From IMG/VR virus record IMGVR_UViG_3300017728_000097, positions 1 through 25,546 of that record: a DNA stretch of 25,546 nucleotides. The stretch is one strand, 5' to 3'. Source of the DNA: a virus. Taxonomy: Duplodnaviria > Caudoviricetes. Under the pieces are notes generated by a model that had not been told where the DNA came from, ran no database searches, and worked only from the letters and a program-made list of their open reading frames with translations. The translations under genes and the position numbers were made by a program. Each line of letters begins with the position of its first letter. Within the stretch, counting starts at the first letter, position 1. Positions 15,110-25,466 of the stretch are shown here, piece by piece.

Positions 15110-15846
15110 AATTTTACTTCTCCTGTTTTCTTATTGTAATCACCATGTCTTAGTATACGTGCAACCCTAGCTTGTTGAAGAGCTTCAGCCTCTGTATATC
15201 CTTTATCTACGTAAATCTTTTTGACTATCTTCCATAGGTCTAAAAGGGGAACGTTAGTATATTTCTTAATCAGCTTCTCAGCAGTCTTAATTCCAACACC
15301 TTCTATGCCGTCATACCCGTCAACTTTATCACCTGTCAAAGTCTGTATCATAAACCAATAGTCAGCCATTCGTTGTGGTATTTGTTCTACAGTCATAGCA
15401 TCTTGTGATAATTTACAAGGTACAGTTCGTAGGTCTTTGTCTATACTAACAACAATACGCTCTTCATCTGTAGGTTCGGTAGCCATAATACCCATAACAT
15501 CATCTGCTTCTAAGTTCTTCCATACAACTCCGTTATGTTTTTCTAATACATATTTTCTCAAAGCTTTTAATGTAATTGGTTTACGCTTGTCTTTTCTATT
15601 GCTTTTGTATGAAGGCAATACATCTTTTCTAAAATTGCTACTGTCTGTTAATGCAATAACATAGTCATCAGCTTGTAAACTAGCGCCTAAGTCATCTACA
15701 ACTGCATCTACGTCAGCTTTACACAAAGTTTCATCACAGTGTAGTGTCCATAAACCGTCACCCCAGTCTGTTTCTACTTCATTATTAAGTGCTATCTTAT
15801 ATAATAAAATATCACCATCAATTAAAAGTACTCTTTTTAGTTTCAT
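15097..15846 (-). CDS. 5'-3' exonuclease (T7 gp6-like)
   Basis: LIDGD, YKSNR, LEADD, SIDKD and GDKVDGYDGIEGVGIKTA. Start moved to ATG 15846, which has an AGGAG SD. Confidence 0.93.
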   Translation of the reverse strand: MKLKRVLLIDGDILLYKIALNNEVETDWGDGLWTLHCDETLCKADVDAVVDDLGASLQADDYVIALTDSSNFRKDVLPSYKSNRKDKRKPITLKALRKYVLEKHNGVVWKNLEADDVMGIMATEPTDEERIVVSIDKDLRTVPCKLSQDAMTVEQIPQRMADYWFMIQTLTGDKVDGYDGIEGVGIKTAEKLIKKYTNVPLLDLWKIVKKIYVDKGYTEAEALQQARVARILRHGDYNKKTGEVKLWTI

Positions 15847-16222: not shown

Positions 16223-17945
16223 TCCAGTTATCTCCTATCTTGTATTCACCAGTTAGCGGAAGTCTTAAATCAAAATACTTACCAGTGTCTTCTATTGCTT
16301 TTACGGCTAATTGCCCAACTTGCTCAGCATCTTTTTCAAGACACTCTACTTGTATTTCATCATGTACCCACACTACTTGATGTGCTTCAGGTATTTTCTT
16401 AATCACTTTATCAAACTCTACTAACCACTGCTTACACACTAAGGCTCCGGACGATTGAAGCAACGTGTTTAATGCAGCATGGCTTGAACGTACTTTAACA
16501 CGTCTCTTATCAAGACCTACTAAGTAACCACGTTCAGCTGCTTGCTGTACATTTTCAATTAGTTTGTTTAATGCAGGTAAGTTATTTAAGAAACGTTTCT
16601 TTATCTTAGATGCTTCTGCTACAGTTTTATTTGTAACTGCTGCAATCTTTTTAACACCACCACCGTAAAGAAAACAGTAGTAAAAACGCTTGGCTAAGTC
16701 TCTGCTATCTAACCCTGCTAATGTTTTTGTTTCAGAGTGTATATCACCATCTAAAACAACTTTAGCATAGTTGCCGTTATCGTACTTAGCCATGTAGTGA
16801 GCCAACATTCTCACCTCTAAACCTGAGACATCAATGCCTACAAGTTTTTTACCAGTTGGAACCGTGAATAATGCTCTACACTCTTTACCATATTGCACAC
16901 CAACACTTGGAATTTGTGCCATGTTTGGGTACGAGTGTGTTGCTCTTGCAGTTACTGTTGAATTAGTATTGCAAGTACCATGTATTTTATTATTCTTCTC
17001 ATGCTTTAACCAAGCTTGAGCGCCAGTAGCTAACTGACCAATTCTTTTATCTAATAGAAAATGCTCACATAATATTTTAGCTTCAGGGTATGGTAAACTT
17101 TCTAAAATAGTTTCATCTAACTTAGGCTTACCATCATCAGTATAAACTTTAGGTTTCCATCCATGTATTTTAATTAATCTATCTGCAATATGTTGTCTAC
17201 TAGATGGATTAAAGATAATAGTTTTTTCTTTGTAGAATACTTCACCCTTAACATATCCTCTAGCTTTGTTATTTACTTTAGGTATAAAAGGTATGTGTTC
17301 TTTTTCAGGTGGAAACATTACTTGTAACTTGTATTCTATTTCCATTCGTCTACCATTTAATTCTGAATAAAGTTTTCTAGCTTCTTCAGTACTAAAACTA
17401 AAACCATGAACTTCTTGATTATAAATTAATTGTGCTACAGAGTGCTCTAAATCCATAGCTTGCTGAGAATATTTCATATCTTTATGTATCATTTTGTGAA
17501 GATTATAAGTTACTTCTACATCTTGTTTACAATACTCTAGCATCTCAGGTGTAAAAGTTTGCCAGTCTGTATCAAACTGTGCTTTGTAATTTCCTATTCT
17601 GTTACCCCATGCTTTTAAACTGTGTCTTCCTATACAATCTTTTGGAAAATCTTTACGTTGAAAATCTTTTTCTTTTACATCTGGAAATAACAATCTTGTT
17701 GCTACAAGTGTGTCAAAAATTTTTGCCTCAGTTTTAAAGGTAGGATATAGTTTTTTTATTACAGGCAAATCAAATTTTATAATGTTGTGTCCTATAATTT
17801 CTTTTGCTTTAGATAATTTATCTAATGCTTCATCAACTGATAAAGACAAAAACTTATTAGTGTCTACATCTTTTAAAACTAAACAATGTATTTTAGTACA
17901 GACGTCAAGAAACCCATCAGTTTCTATATCAAATATGTATCTCAT
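16209..17945 (-). CDS. DNA polymerase family A (T7 gp5-like)
   Basis: Exonuclease motifs FDIETDG, GHNIIKFD and YCKQDV. Polymerase motifs DVSGLEVR, AKRFYYCFLYG and VHDE. Confidence 0.97.
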   Translation of the reverse strand: MRYIFDIETDGFLDVCTKIHCLVLKDVDTNKFLSLSVDEALDKLSKAKEIIGHNIIKFDLPVIKKLYPTFKTEAKIFDTLVATRLLFPDVKEKDFQRKDFPKDCIGRHSLKAWGNRIGNYKAQFDTDWQTFTPEMLEYCKQDVEVTYNLHKMIHKDMKYSQQAMDLEHSVAQLIYNQEVHGFSFSTEEARKLYSELNGRRMEIEYKLQVMFPPEKEHIPFIPKVNNKARGYVKGEVFYKEKTIIFNPSSRQHIADRLIKIHGWKPKVYTDDGKPKLDETILESLPYPEAKILCEHFLLDKRIGQLATGAQAWLKHEKNNKIHGTCNTNSTVTARATHSYPNMAQIPSVGVQYGKECRALFTVPTGKKLVGIDVSGLEVRMLAHYMAKYDNGNYAKVVLDGDIHSETKTLAGLDSRDLAKRFYYCFLYGGGVKKIAAVTNKTVAEASKIKKRFLNNLPALNKLIENVQQAAERGYLVGLDKRRVKVRSSHAALNTLLQSSGALVCKQWLVEFDKVIKKIPEAHQVVWVHDEIQVECLEKDAEQVGQLAVKAIEDTGKYFDLRLPLTGEYKIGDNWSETH

Positions 17946-21545: not shown

Positions 21546-21563
21546 TCTACTATGGGTACTTTA
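21546..21563 (-). promoter_or_regulatory. Candidate phage RNAP promoter for the replication genes
   Basis: TAAAGTACCCATAGTAGA in the RNAP-SSB gap, identical at 16 of 18 positions to 24057-24074. Confidence 0.75.
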
Positions 21564-21566
21564 ATG

Positions 21567-24014
21567 CTACGCAAAAAAGAACTCACTGTCCCGCAGTTGT
21601 TGAATATCTAAATTACCTTTGGCGGGAACTTCAGGTAATTTATCGTGTAGCTCTTCAGGCAATTGTTTAAGAACGTCATTCCTAAAATTATCAAGAATAT
21701 CATTCTCACTAAACATTTTAATAAATGCTTCTCTAATAGATTTATTAAGTGTTTCAACATCACCTGCTGTTGTGCCAAAACTATCATGTACGTTACAGAA
21801 ATTAGTAATGCCATTTTTATAAGCAATATTAACTGTACTCATCATAGCTGCACTGTCCACCGAGTGAACTACGTTAGGTGCTACTCCGTTACCCATTCGT
21901 AGTTTGTCAGTTAAGTCAGTCTCAGTATTTATACGAGGCTTAATAACTTCACCCATCAACATAGCCTTAACTCTTTTAGACTTCATTTCTGGATATGACT
22001 GATACACTGGAAAACCAACCGGCGTTACCCAATGCACTGGTAGTTGTTGTTTCGCAACTGTACGTGCGATTGTTTGTAGATAGTCCATTCCAGTCCTAGC
22101 AGATTTCAGATTATCACCGATACTGTCCCATATGACACTTGCTAAATAACTAGCCGGTCTGAATATCTCATCTTGAAATGGATGGTTCTCTCCCTTGTCT
22201 TTACGTTTTGTTAAATCTTCAATTACAAAGTCAGTGCATGAATATCTAGTTGAACCATAACAGATAGTCATAATACTTCTTTTAGTAGTTGAACGTTTAA
22301 CTCCGTAGTCTAACCACAACTGAGCATACGGTTTGTTTTCAGCTGCATGCTGTTTTAATTTATCATTAACTGCATCTGCAACTAATTGATAAATGTCTTG
22401 CGGTGTAGCACTAGGCAAACAATTAACAAGCTTGCCTGCTTTTTCGTCTCTTAACATTAAAGAATAAATTTGAAGACCGTTACAAGAACCGTCTACATTA
22501 ACAGGAATACTAGAAATAAAACCATATCCTTGTTCTTTAAATCTTTTCCACTCATCACAAAATGCTAAGAATTGAAATGGATTAGATGCATTTTCCCATT
22601 GTCTATGTAACATTGGGTCTGTAGCACAATCAATAATCCAACTCTCATTATCGTTAGTCCATTTTACTCTGTCAGCAAACGATATTTTATCTTCACCGTA
22701 TTGGTTAGCACCGTGTATAGCCAACCAATAATCACCTTTGTTTTCTTTTGTGATTGCTTTACCTTGTGAAAAAGACAACAAAGCTTTGGCACCACCAATA
22801 GATTGATAGTTTAAAAATGCCGGTACTGCATACGCTCTACCTCTAAAATCTAATTGAACTGGAAAATACAACGTTGCATAATCTTTAAACTTTTGTGCAA
22901 GGTGTATAATTTTAGCATACAATAAACGTTTAGAAAACATTCTAGCATTTTCAGTGTGAGCCATAACAGCTCTCTTCTTCCATTCTCTTCTACTGTCAAC
23001 ATTAGTTTCAATGTCATGCGGTTTGTTTGGAATATCAAAGTTAGTACTAGGCGGCATACCACCAACAGCTAACCCTTTGTCCCATGCTTCTTGCATAACT
23101 TTTAAGATAAAATTATTAATCTTAAATGGTGTTGCTTGCATTGTATTAACAGCGTCATACACTTCAGGCATGTCAAAGTTTTCAAGTTCCTTTTTGTATT
23201 TCTTGTTTTTTTGTTTAACAAGCTCAAGTTCAGGAAGCTCTTTAGTCCAATAACCGCCACCTACAACTGACGTCCATAATTTTGGCGGCATGACTGTAGG
23301 TAAGTATTCCGGATTTAACAGTTCATTAAAACTGTTTCTACTTTTAATCCACTCTCTAGTTTTATCAGTCTGTTTGATTATCTTTGCTTTTTTATGTTTA
23401 ACAGTTTCAGTACCTATCTCAATCATACCTGTTGCATAAATCATAAGCTCTACAAGTCTAAGACCTACGTGTAATTTAACAGGTGTTGTCCACTCTTCCC
23501 ATTTCATTACCTCGTCACGTTTAGCACTTTCTCTTAATTTTCTACGCTTGTAAGTATAATTAAAACTACGCTTGTCTAAGTCTTGTTTAACTGTTTGGTA
23601 CAAATCAGGGTTTAGATGTTTAAAGTTTTTAAGACTAATCTCAGTCTCAACTTTACCACCTAAACTTATGCACGTTGCTGTTAAAGGTTTGTATTGTGTG
23701 ATTGTATTTATGATGTGTTTACCAGTGATTAGTGCCAGTATCTCAGGCTCAACTTCACACATCTTTAAGAAGGCAATAGAAGGTTTGCCTATTGTCTTTT
23801 TAGATTGTTCTTGTGTCCATTCAGCAATAGCCATTGCTAAAGGTCTTATCGTGTTTGCTACCATTACTTTTCCATAACTGGTAACACTTTCCTCTTCTCT
23901 CTCAATGTGAGAATGAAGACGCTTATTAGTTCTGTTTGAACCTAAGTTTCTCATCTCTTTTTCGTGCTCTACTTCATCTTTATAAGTAGGCATACTCTCA
24001 ATCAGTCGTGCCAT
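21567..24014 (-). CDS. Single-subunit DNA-directed RNA polymerase (T7 gp1-like)
   Basis: 815 aa with DFRGR, DGSCNGLQ (motif A), RSTTKRSIMTICYG (motif B), PNVVHS.D and VHDSF (motif C). AGGAG SD. Confidence 0.98.
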   Translation of the reverse strand: MARLIESMPTYKDEVEHEKEMRNLGSNRTNKRLHSHIEREEESVTSYGKVMVANTIRPLAMAIAEWTQEQSKKTIGKPSIAFLKMCEVEPEILALITGKHIINTITQYKPLTATCISLGGKVETEISLKNFKHLNPDLYQTVKQDLDKRSFNYTYKRRKLRESAKRDEVMKWEEWTTPVKLHVGLRLVELMIYATGMIEIGTETVKHKKAKIIKQTDKTREWIKSRNSFNELLNPEYLPTVMPPKLWTSVVGGGYWTKELPELELVKQKNKKYKKELENFDMPEVYDAVNTMQATPFKINNFILKVMQEAWDKGLAVGGMPPSTNFDIPNKPHDIETNVDSRREWKKRAVMAHTENARMFSKRLLYAKIIHLAQKFKDYATLYFPVQLDFRGRAYAVPAFLNYQSIGGAKALLSFSQGKAITKENKGDYWLAIHGANQYGEDKISFADRVKWTNDNESWIIDCATDPMLHRQWENASNPFQFLAFCDEWKRFKEQGYGFISSIPVNVDGSCNGLQIYSLMLRDEKAGKLVNCLPSATPQDIYQLVADAVNDKLKQHAAENKPYAQLWLDYGVKRSTTKRSIMTICYGSTRYSCTDFVIEDLTKRKDKGENHPFQDEIFRPASYLASVIWDSIGDNLKSARTGMDYLQTIARTVAKQQLPVHWVTPVGFPVYQSYPEMKSKRVKAMLMGEVIKPRINTETDLTDKLRMGNGVAPNVVHSVDSAAMMSTVNIAYKNGITNFCNVHDSFGTTAGDVETLNKSIREAFIKMFSENDILDNFRNDVLKQLPEELHDKLPEVPAKGNLDIQQLRDSEFFFA

Positions 24015-24056
24015 GTGTCTAACTCCTATAATTATCAGTGGGTTATGTTTATAATA

Positions 24057-24074
24057 TCTACTATGGGAACCTTA
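24057..24074 (-). promoter_or_regulatory. Candidate phage RNAP promoter upstream of the RNAP gene
   Basis: TAAGGTTCCCATAGTAGA, a near-identical copy of the 21546-21563 motif. Confidence 0.7.
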
Positions 24075-24434
24075 GTCAGGCTCCCTAGTAGTAACTTGTA
24101 GCTCATTAGAAATAGCAAACTTTGGCGCTAGTTTAGATGTGAGTATATTCTCTATAAACTGCGCTGCTCTATGTGCTATTTGGTTTGGTGTCATTGCGTC
24201 ATACGCTTCAACAGATTGTGTTTTCTGTAAAAACAATATGATTTTCTTTTTAAGCTCCCAATCTATTTTGATATTTTTGTATTGGTTAAGCTCAGTGTTA
24301 CGCTCAAGTAAATCAGACTTAGCTTTTTTTAAATCAAAAAGCCAATCATTAGCTTTAGTTTTAAATGTAATAAGCTCAGCCTCTAATTTATTATTCTTAT
24401 CAATCAAATGTTGTATTTGTTCTTTATCTGTCAT
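24072..24434 (-). CDS. Early hypothetical protein with an N-terminal coiled coil, 120 aa
   Basis: AGGAG SD, heptad-like Leu pattern, overlaps the upstream ORF. Confidence 0.75.
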   Translation of the reverse strand: MTDKEQIQHLIDKNNKLEAELITFKTKANDWLFDLKKAKSDLLERNTELNQYKNIKIDWELKKKIILFLQKTQSVEAYDAMTPNQIAHRAAQFIENILTSKLAPKFAISNELQVTTREPD

Positions 24435-24606
24435 TGTGCTCCTGTAATGATTTGATTTGTTTATCTGTTAGTTGTGTTGTTTGTTCAAAAGGGTTAATGC
24501 TACGCTCCTTCTTAGGTGTTCGCATTGCATGTATTATACCGGCTATTATTGTACCTAGTATTAATACATGTCCTTCAAATGGTAGTCCTAGTATTAGTTC
24601 AATCAT
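24424..24606 (-). CDS. Early small membrane protein, 60 aa
   Basis: AAGGAG SD. Hydrophobic segment VLILGTIIAGIIHAM followed by basic residues. Confidence 0.75.
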   Translation of the reverse strand: MIELILGLPFEGHVLILGTIIAGIIHAMRTPKKERSINPFEQTTQLTDKQIKSLQEHNDR

Positions 24607-24630
24607 GGTTTAAGCTCCTTTGGTTAGATT

Positions 24631-24715
24631 GTAACAGACTAAAGCCGGATAGTACCGGCTCTAGTTTCGCCACGTGGTATTCACTCACCACGCATAATAG
24701 GCTCATCAGTGTTAC
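24631..24715 (-). ncRNA. Hammerhead ribozyme, type I
   Basis: GUAACA-CUGAUGA-GCC(UAUUAU GCGUGGU GAGUGAAU ACCACGU)GGC-GAAA-CUAGAGCCGG(UACUAU)CCGGCUUUAG-UC/UGUUAC. All core nucleotides and three stems are present. Predicted cut between 24637 and 24636. Confidence 0.93.
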
Positions 24716-24924
24716 TCGTAACTTCTTTGTTTTATAACGACACTAACTTCAATTTCAGTGCCGTCATGTGCTTCGTCAAGCTCAGCAACTAAAGGTATTA
24801 ATTTTTTAAAACGTATACCTTCATCACTGTTAAGACGTACTATTGTATATCCGCCTTCATATTTATCTTTTTTTTCATTCCATTTATCACCTATTACTTG
24901 TACATCATATTTACTTACATGCAT
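24712..24924 (-). CDS. Early hypothetical protein, 70 aa
   Basis: GAGG SD. Its UAA stop forms part of hammerhead stem I. Confidence 0.75.
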   Translation of the reverse strand: MHVSKYDVQVIGDKWNEKKDKYEGGYTIVRLNSDEGIRFKKLIPLVAELDEAHDGTEIEVSVVIKQRSYE

Positions 24925-24925
24925 A

Positions 24926-25231
24926 TTAATTACCTCTTATTGTTTGTTTTAGTTTTTGGAACTTTGCATCAGTCTCAGCTTGTTCAATCTCAGACTTAAA
25001 CTTGCTTAGCTCCGCTCGTTTATCAAGACCCGCAGGCTCATCAATTCTGAGACCTGCACTATTAAACCATTTACCAGTACTGGTTAGATAGTATTTTGAC
25101 TTGACTTTTTTTACCTTGCATGGGTCAACCTTGCCATCAGGTTTTAACAAGTATACTGACTTATTAAAATTCTGATACAACCGGTCAACCCAACGCTCAT
25201 TAATAAAGTTAGATACAACGATATTAGGCAT
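24926..25231 (-). CDS. Early hypothetical protein, 101 aa
   Basis: TAATG-coupled to the upstream 43-aa ORF. Basic, with no recognisable family. Confidence 0.75.
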   Translation of the reverse strand: MPNIVVSNFINERWVDRLYQNFNKSVYLLKPDGKVDPCKVKKVKSKYYLTSTGKWFNSAGLRIDEPAGLDKRAELSKFKSEIEQAETDAKFQKLKQTIRGN

Positions 25232-25362
25232 TAATGACCCGCCTTGCTGTAACCGTTGTTTAACTTCATTCTCACGGCTAATCTTTTATTTCTAAAAGCT
25301 TGCTCGTCAGCTAGCATTTTTTGATGCAAGTAATTGTATATTATTTTATATAGCATATTCAT
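25231..25362 (-). CDS. Early hypothetical microprotein, 43 aa
   Basis: Not in the track. MNMLYKIIYNYLHQKMLADEQAFRNKRLAVRMKLNNGYSKAGH. AGGAG SD and TAATG overlap with the next gene. Confidence 0.75.
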   Translation of the reverse strand: MNMLYKIIYNYLHQKMLADEQAFRNKRLAVRMKLNNGYSKAGH

Positions 25363-25398: not shown

Positions 25399-25466
25399 GA
25401 GCTCATCAGTCATGGCTTAACCATGAGACAAAGCGCCGGACGTTACAACGGCGCAATGTTTCGCTC
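25399..25466 (-). ncRNA. Hammerhead ribozyme, type II
   Basis: GAGC-GAAA-CA-uu-GCGCCG(UUGUAACGUC)CGGCGC-uu-UG-UC/UCAUGG(UUAAG)CCAUGA-CUGAUGA-GCUC. Complete core and three stems. Predicted cut between 25427 and 25426. Confidence 0.92.

What the first reader, a model, noticed from the sequence alone, without database searches (positions are those of the whole stretch)
24631..24715. Type I hammerhead with an extended bulged stem II, fused to the upstream stop codon
Seen: the 5' strand of stem I (GUAACA) contains the UAA stop of the 70-aa ORF. Stem II has a 6-nt UAUUAU bulge plus a 7-bp extension, and stem III is about 11 bp. Cleavage leaves a 30-nt leader (UGUUAC...AAGGAG) on the mRNA for the 60-aa and 120-aa proteins and RNAP. 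Inference: a terminating ribosome would cover stem I and the CUGAUGA core, so cleavage could depend on upstream translation and tune RNAP message. The bulge may supply the stem I-II tertiary contact, for example AUU with the AAU just 3' of stem I.
Basis: partly seen in the sequence, partly recalled or inferred. Interest (0 to 1): 0.8.

Follow-up and report, generated by a model that had tools for sequence, protein, structure and literature searches.

The report
Hammerhead ribozymes splitting pelagiphage early mRNA
This is a real self-cutting RNA, one of several that sit between the first genes of a virus of the ocean bacterium SAR11 and probably cut its long early message into pieces; ribozyme clusters in phages are already known, and the unusual extra hairpin is optional.

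Summary
The type I hammerhead is real: full core, three stems, fold z = -4.9, compensatory changes in relatives. The window is a T7-like Pelagibacter phage (RNA polymerase 99% identical to HTVC142P). A second, type II hammerhead lies 790 nt upstream, and 42 of 45 related loci with enough sequence carry 1-5 sense-strand hammerheads of types I, II and III before the polymerase gene. Best reading: they cut the early polycistronic mRNA into gene blocks, like T7's RNase III sites. Clustered phage hammerheads were published in 2011, and this scan noted such arrays before on other DNA. The bulged extension is a 21-nt insertion allele (14 of 30 orthologous sites; absent in HTVC142P), so it is dispensable. 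Stops abut the ribozyme family-wide (88 of 99 contexts), but type II copies do the same and the genome is compact. A promoter-like motif directly before the polymerase gene weakens the idea that the cut tunes polymerase mRNA. One new lead: other type I copies carry a covarying hairpin that competes with stem I (22 of 30; 2.6 expected). This site lacks it. No cleavage was measured.

The parts
24631..24715 (-). Type I hammerhead ribozyme (open stem I); predicted cut after GUC, between 24637 and 24636
   Evidence: covariation
24710..24715 (-). Stem I 5' strand; holds the UAA stop (24714-24712) of the 70-aa ORF. The two UGA of the core are in the same frame.
   Evidence: sequence
24694..24699 (-). 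6-nt bulge in stem II, aligned with loop II of plain alleles
24672..24693 (-). 7-bp stem II extension with 8-nt loop; a 21-nt insertion relative to plain alleles
24639..24664 (-). Stem III, 10 bp with a 6-nt loop; stays at the 3' end of the upstream product
24607..24636 (-). 30-nt leader of the downstream product, Shine-Dalgarno AAGGAG at 24620-24615
25399..25466 (-). Second hammerhead, type II (open stem II); predicted cut between 25427 and 25426, 64 nt before the 43-aa ORF
   Evidence: conserved in relatives
24712..24924 (-). 70-aa early ORF upstream of the ribozyme, no PHROG family; substitutions biased to third codon positions (74 third, 43 first, 28 second)
24424..24606 (-). 60-aa early ORF, first gene after the cut, no PHROG family
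24072..24434 (-). 120-aa early ORF, no PHROG family
24926..25362 (-). 43-aa and 101-aa early ORFs, which lie with the 70-aa ORF between the two cuts
24057..24076 (-). Candidate phage-polymerase promoter directly before the RNA polymerase gene, inside a hairpin at about 24058-24091; second copy at 21546-21565
   Evidence: function inferred, not tested
21567..24014 (-). T7-like RNA polymerase, 815 aa
   Evidence: phrog_414, E 2e-262; 99.1% identical to HTVC142P

Best explanation
A largely constitutive mRNA-processing ribozyme. The long early transcript of this SAR11 phage is cut at several hammerheads set between blocks of one to three small genes, the job that host RNase III does at five sites in T7. 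At this site the cut leaves stems II and III as a hairpin-capped 3' end on the message for the 43-, 101- and 70-aa proteins. It gives the message for the 60-aa protein, the 120-aa protein and (on read-through) the polymerase a 5'-OH end with a 30-nt leader and its own ribosome-binding site. Shown: structure, selection on pairing, array, placement, leader. Inferred: cleavage in vivo, a single host-made early transcript, and that the new ends set stability or translation. The stem II extension is an optional allele that lengthens the upstream 3' cap and keeps the old loop II as a bulge.
For: Fold and descriptor controls. A pattern that fixed only core and stem I words retrieved 79 unique ribozymes from 114 viral loci; stem II had 3 or more pairs in 79 of 79 and stem III 5 or more in 78 of 79, with several pair types per position. 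At 18 sites (this one, its orthologues and three that follow a 70-aa ORF in a sister clade) 99% of cells pair and 12 of 26 pairs change on both sides; slid registers pair 29-40%. 42 of 45 loci with at least 1.5 kb upstream of the polymerase carry hammerheads, 35 of them 3-5 copies, on the sense strand. A start codon with a ribosome-binding site follows 28-63 nt after 60 of 66 non-redundant type I cuts. The same downstream gene family can have a type I or a type III copy in front (28+2 and 2+1). Clustered phage hammerheads cleave 2-kb polycistronic RNAs in vitro and in E. coli (PMC3088659, passages). T7's early precursor has five RNase III signals (PMC3867540, passage).
Against: No cleavage or RNA end was measured. 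No clear host promoter was found upstream (14 sites against 15.5 by chance in L002), so one long transcript is assumed. The cultured phage HTVC168P lacks the ribozyme after the 70-aa homolog (20 of 21 homolog loci have it). 8 of 16 named phage early regions have none: five more distant pelagiphages plus HTVC011P, CRP-125 and T7. So cutting here is not essential. In nearest-neighbour models stem I is marginal once flanks are added (probability 0.0-0.96 at 20 C depending on flank length). Related sequences are not independent samples.
Confidence: 0.65

Rival explanations
1. Translation-gated cleavage. A ribosome ending on the stop inside stem I holds the ribozyme open, so the cut waits for gaps in upstream translation and downstream message follows host translation state.
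For: Upstream stops end within -4 to +10 nt of the stem I start in 88 of 99 unique contexts from 23 ORF families, 37 using the UAA in stem I; random anchors give 7%. Stem I is only 6 bp and marginal in context. At other type I sites the 3' strand of stem I has a second Watson-Crick partner just downstream (22 of 30, 2.6 expected; foreign strands find one in 14 of 138 swaps), which lowers stem I probability (0.31 against 0.75 shuffled, 38 of 45) and could trap an off state.
Against: This site has no such hairpin (3 of 14 short-leader sites, 1.2 expected; 0.85 against 0.75). The random-anchor null ignores compaction: 24 of 32 window junctions overlap or lie within 4 nt (hand count), and type II copies abut stops too (16 of 16). 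The ribozyme itself supplies in-frame stops, which explains the frame bias. The stop slides at this very site (+4, +1, -2) and lies 8-17 nt away in 8 of 99 contexts. Upstream sequence is no more inhibitory than shuffles (0.31 against 0.21). A promoter-like motif precedes the polymerase gene in 56 of 61 loci.
Confidence: 0.2
2. Mobile or recombining cassettes that are tolerated. The ribozyme modules spread among the hypervariable early genes and are kept folded mainly because they do no harm, or because they mark gene-swap boundaries, with little effect on expression.
For: Alleles are mosaic: the extended form occurs with polymerases 91-100% identical, the plain form with 85-100%. Copy number runs from 0 to 5 and downstream genes are swapped behind the same cassette. 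HTVC168P lacks this site.
Against: Strict core conservation and compensatory changes show selection on the RNA fold. Strong hits are confined to the sense strand of the early region and sit between genes with fitted leaders.
Confidence: 0.1
3. The extended allele is inactive or much slower than the plain allele, because the insertion disturbs the loop II contact.
For: In the direct register the bulge lacks the two best-kept loop II letters (U at position 1 and A at position 3, each 32 of 33 plain pentaloops), and the fourth stem II pair becomes U-U or U-C. Small changes to stem length cut activity strongly in other natural hammerheads (PMC3088659, passage).
Against: The allele is common (14 of 30 orthologous sites, including cultured HTVC031P), with an intact core. 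Its variation falls in the loop and bulge, plus one G-U to A-U change that keeps the extension paired.
Confidence: 0.05

Closest known systems
Clustered hammerhead ribozymes flanking genes in prophages and phages (Perreault et al. 2011, PMC3088659)
   Same: Several co-oriented hammerheads of types I, II and III flank single genes or short blocks; processing into gene- or operon-length mRNAs was proposed there (passages and first part of the Discussion read).
   Different: Here the host is SAR11 and the phage is T7-like, with the array confined to the early region. Its 11 held supplements do not contain three short motifs of this family or the word Pelagibacter. In the parts read I saw nothing on stop-codon placement or on a hairpin competing with stem I.
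RNase III processing signals of the T7 early transcript
   Same: Position (between early genes, before and around the polymerase gene) and number (five signals in T7, PMC3867540 passage; 3-5 ribozymes here).
   Different: No host enzyme is needed. Products carry 5'-OH and 2',3'-cyclic phosphate rather than 5'-phosphate and 3'-OH (established chemistry). T7's early region has no hammerhead.
Extended type I hammerheads (Schistosoma type)
   Same: Open stem I, same core, loop II placed against the distal end of stem I; tertiary contact between loop II and a stem I bulge is the general rule (PMC12192606, passages).
   Different: Stem I ends after 6 bp at an almost invariant A/A mismatch, and in this allele the loop II element is a bulge followed by a further hairpin.
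Rfam RAGATH-1-hammerhead (RF03152)
   Same: Best Rfam match, type I topology with a long stem III.
   Different: 26.5 bits against a gathering score of 56.3, and the 5' hairpin of the model does not pair here.

Membership tests
Hammerhead ribozyme, type I | Core CUGANGA, GAAA and NUH cleavage triplet | tested here: met
   CUGAUGA, GAAA, GUC at the expected places
Hammerhead ribozyme, type I | Three helices around the core, stem I open | tested here: met
   MFE and centroid fold, z -4.9
Hammerhead ribozyme, type I | Helices supported by compensatory change | tested here: met
   Stems I, II base and III: 12 pairs changed on both sides; unbiased pattern set. The extension itself shows one compatible change only.
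Hammerhead ribozyme, type I | Tertiary contact between stem I and stem II regions | tested here: inconclusive
   Loop II U1 with flanking A in 39 of 40 plain forms, and the one exception swaps both letters; a single event, and the bulged allele is untested
Hammerhead ribozyme, type I | Self-cleavage | not testable with these tools
   Needs a bench assay; only contigs were available
Clustered phage hammerheads (Perreault 2011) | Several hammerheads flanking single genes or short gene blocks in a phage genome | tested here: met
   Two in the window, 3-5 in 35 of 45 related loci
Rfam RF03152 RAGATH-1-hammerhead | Score at or above the gathering threshold | tested here: not met
   26.5 against 56.3 bits
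T7-type RNase III processing signal | Long hairpin cut by host RNase III | tested here: not met
   The element is a three-way junction with a ribozyme core; analogy of role only
Translation-controlled ribozyme switch | Ribosome footprint overlaps an essential helix | tested here: met
   Stop lies in stem I; footprint size is from general knowledge
Translation-controlled ribozyme switch | A selected alternative structure at this site | tested here: not met
   Neither flank beats shuffles here; met at other copies

The most novel reading that the evidence does not exclude
The type I cassettes of these pelagiphages are ribosome-gated switches. The stop codon places a terminating ribosome on the 5' strand of stem I, and at most other copies a covarying downstream hairpin captures the freed 3' strand, so the phage sets the processing of its early message by host translation state without any protein or host nuclease. 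This site would be the ungated or weakly gated member that releases the message leading to the polymerase.
Probability: 0.2. Interest if true: 0.75.

Novelty: new member of a known kind. Interest (0 to 1): 0.38.

Why it matters
The purpose of phage hammerheads is still described as open (PMC6765202, passages). These arrays sit in cultured phages of a culturable, very abundant host, in the place where T7 uses RNase III, and they come with natural variants: extended and plain stem II, present and absent sites, copies with and without a competing hairpin. That makes the question testable by end-mapping and reporter operons.

Tried and rejected
Rfam at gathering level found nothing in the window. 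An E-value scan of 12 named early regions found only sub-threshold hammerheads and tRNA, and no other ribozyme class in phages lacking hammerheads. The third descriptor hit, 17063-17147 inside the DNA polymerase gene, has a 2-bp stem III and is taken as chance. My first test for a hairpin on the 3' product allowed G-U pairs and did not discriminate (4.9 against 4.5 pairs); the Watson-Crick version did. An apparent inhibition of stem I by upstream sequence vanished against shuffled flanks. RNA runs were contigs only: none of 3 RNA runs bridges the cut at 24637/24636, one RNA contig spans 25409-24715 between the two cuts, and a run of unrecorded kind bridges the site; depth was 2-7 and missing cover proves nothing. 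No joints suggesting circles were listed. The ribozyme pattern had 0 matches in prokaryote genomes. The polymerase found one locus there, a phage-like contig in a Marinimicrobia bin with two hammerheads, so I could not test whether SAR11 encodes RNase III (one search had no SAR11 control; the listing gave no answer). Sigma-70 scans were at chance level. A published prediction for the HTVC031P polymerase promoter differs from my motif (PMC11475235, passage), so mine stays a candidate. Look-ups of earlier notes by place and by sequence returned nothing.

Full report
Setting. The window's main gene chain lies on the minus strand and is a T7-like phage: RNA polymerase, gp2.5, endonuclease, amidase, primase-helicase, DNA polymerase, ribonucleotide reductase, head-tail adaptor, capsid and tail. 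The polymerase is 99.1% identical to that of Pelagibacter phage HTVC142P and 95.6% to HTVC031P. The finding lies among five small early ORFs with no PHROG family. HTVC031P has no integrase and is described as a putative obligate lytic phage (bioRxiv 10.1101/410191, passages; its supplements were not seen).

Observation. The isolated 85-mer folds this way with z -4.9. My descriptor scan found three hits in the window; 0 of 100 shuffles had a hit scoring 12 or more. Rfam misses all of them at gathering level.

It is one of an array. I scanned 73 IMG/VR loci and 4 isolates around the polymerase, counting hits of score 11 or more upstream of the polymerase. Of 45 loci with at least 1.5 kb upstream, 42 have a hammerhead and 35 have three to five; of 28 with at least 3 kb, 26 do. 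All three permutations occur on the sense strand, a few hundred bases apart. Type III copies usually come first, with no long frame upstream in 13 of 17. Among 16 named early regions, HTVC031P, 142P, Eistla, 168P, 109P, 022P, 019P and 021P have one to three; HTVC121P, 134P, 120P, 200P, 119P, 011P, CRP-125 and T7 have none. These loci are related and are not independent samples.

Selection on the fold. A pattern fixing only core and stem I words matched 114 viral loci, giving 79 unique ribozymes. Stem II had at least 3 pairs in 79 of 79 and stem III at least 5 in 78 of 79, with swaps such as C-G/G-C/A-U. On 18 aligned sites 99% of cells pair, 12 of 26 pairs change on both sides, and slid registers pair 29-40%. 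The extension shows only one compatible change (G-U to A-U) among 8 carriers.

The bulged extension. It is a 21-nt insertion at the 3' side of loop II. Among 30 short-leader type I sites, taken as orthologous, 14 have it and 16 do not, including HTVC142P and a locus with a 100% identical polymerase. It appears at no other site in 204 loci and makes up 8 of 79 unique ribozymes. Plain loops are mostly U-x-A-x-U pentaloops, stem I is flanked by A on both sides in 49 of 50 contexts, and the one exception (HTVC168P) has U flanks with an A-bounded loop. That hints at a loop-flank contact, from a single event. The specific AUU-AAU pairing fits 10 of 11 extended contexts (read by eye) but cannot form in most plain alleles at the same site, and three A/U pairs discriminate little.

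The stop codon. Using the descriptor hits and 80 of the 114 pattern loci, and dropping contexts with under 150 nt upstream, 99 unique contexts from 23 upstream ORF families remained. All stops end within -17 to +20 nt of the stem I start, 88 within -4 to +10, and 37 use the UAA in stem I. Random anchors give 7%. The placement is real, but compaction explains it: 24 of 32 junctions in the window overlap or lie within 4 nt (hand count, using mechanical starts), and 16 of 16 type II copies have a stop within -13 to +1. The 70-aa ORF looks like a real gene (third-position bias), so ribosomes should end on stem I. By inference that can delay a cut but not prevent it unless an alternative fold traps the RNA. 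Upstream sequence lowers stem I no more than shuffles (0.31 against 0.21 over 25 contexts), and the downstream flank here is neutral (0.85 against 0.75).

A lead at the other copies. At 22 of 30 other type I products the 3' strand of stem I has an exact five-base complement a few bases downstream (2.6 expected), and the complement changes with stem I; foreign strands find a partner in 14 of 138 swaps. It lowers stem I probability in 38 of 45 contexts. It could cap the new 5' end and release the product, or trap an off state when a ribosome sits on the stop. Only 3 of 14 short-leader products have it (1.2 expected), and the window's does not.

The polymerase message. A 20-nt motif at 24057-24076 recurs before gp2.5 at 21546-21565 (2 matches, 0 in 100 shuffles) and lies within 100 nt upstream of the polymerase in 56 of 61 loci, also where the overlapping hairpin is lost. 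Its likeness to T7 and SP6 promoters is recalled, not tested, and a published prediction for HTVC031P differs (PMC11475235, passage). RNA contigs from two studies stop at 24037 and 24036 while a run of unrecorded kind goes on, but a third RNA run also goes on: a weak hint. If it is a promoter, the hammerhead shapes only the first, host-made polymerase message.

Mechanism. Most likely (0.65) the ribozymes cut the early transcript soon after synthesis into blocks of one to three genes. For type I the hairpins stay on the upstream product and the downstream product starts with 5'-OH, an A/C-rich leader and a ribosome-binding site. That such ends resist decay enzymes is general knowledge, not tested here. 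Translation gating (0.2), tolerated mobile cassettes (0.1) and an inactive allele (0.05) are the rivals.

What is known. Perreault et al. 2011 described clustered type I, II and III hammerheads flanking prophage genes, showed cleavage of polycistronic RNAs and proposed mRNA processing (PMC3088659; passages, part 1 of the Discussion and a search of 11 supplements). A 2019 review calls the purpose unresolved (PMC6765202, passages). T7 uses five RNase III signals (PMC3867540, passage). Searches for hammerheads in pelagiphages or T7-like phages (listings only) showed no paper on these arrays, and two pelagiphage papers hold no mention of ribozymes in the main text; the library lacks most subscription journals. 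Earlier notes of this scan report similar arrays in other T7-like phages; they are unchecked and were seen after I had stated my reading.

Verdict. Real, selected, and a new member of a known kind. The extension is an optional allele and the coupling to translation is unproven and weakest at this site. The arrays in cultured SAR11 phages and the competing hairpin at sister copies make an open question testable. Interest 0.38.

Noticed in passing
window 25399-25466 (-): Second hammerhead, type II, in front of the 43-aa ORF; conserved with stem swaps in relatives.
   Followed up: yes
L001 2475-2560, L011 4033-4115, L022 2013-2095 and 2537-2615, L056 4150-4220, L077 488-570: At most other type I copies the 3' strand of stem I has a covarying complement just downstream: a 5'-terminal hairpin on the product, or a competitor of stem I (22 of 30, 2.6 expected).
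   Followed up: partly
window 24057-24076 and 21546-21565 (-); looser copies near 15259 and 11871: Candidate promoter for the phage RNA polymerase, upstream of the polymerase gene itself in 56 of 61 loci; differs from the published prediction for HTVC031P.
   Followed up: partly
window 24058-24091 (-): A hairpin of about 14 bp covers the stop of the 120-aa ORF and the promoter-like motif; strong in the close clade, weak or absent in more distant loci. Possible RNase III site or terminator.
   Followed up: partly
L011, L022, L034, L035, L039, L063, L076-L080, early regions: A 10-nt motif GACTWGACGG recurs with 76 of 76 hits on the sense strand, often in leaders just after ribozymes or in the 3' arm of hairpins; absent from this window's early region. 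Unexplained.
   Followed up: no
L077 (HTVC168P) 488-551: The only type I copy of 50 contexts with U on both sides of stem I also has an A-bounded loop II, suggesting loop-flank pairing.
   Followed up: partly
L001 1650-1705, L011 3440-3475: G+C-rich paired stretches lie just upstream of type III hammerheads, before the first early gene; not characterised.
   Followed up: no
L204 4198-4802: A phage-like contig with a polymerase 74% identical and two hammerheads sits in a Marinimicrobia bin; probably a mis-binned pelagiphage.
   Followed up: no
window 25231-25362; L022 140-aa ORF: The 43-aa ORF's C-terminus resembles the end of a 140-aa early protein that precedes a type I hammerhead in the sister clade (seen by eye).
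   Followed up: no
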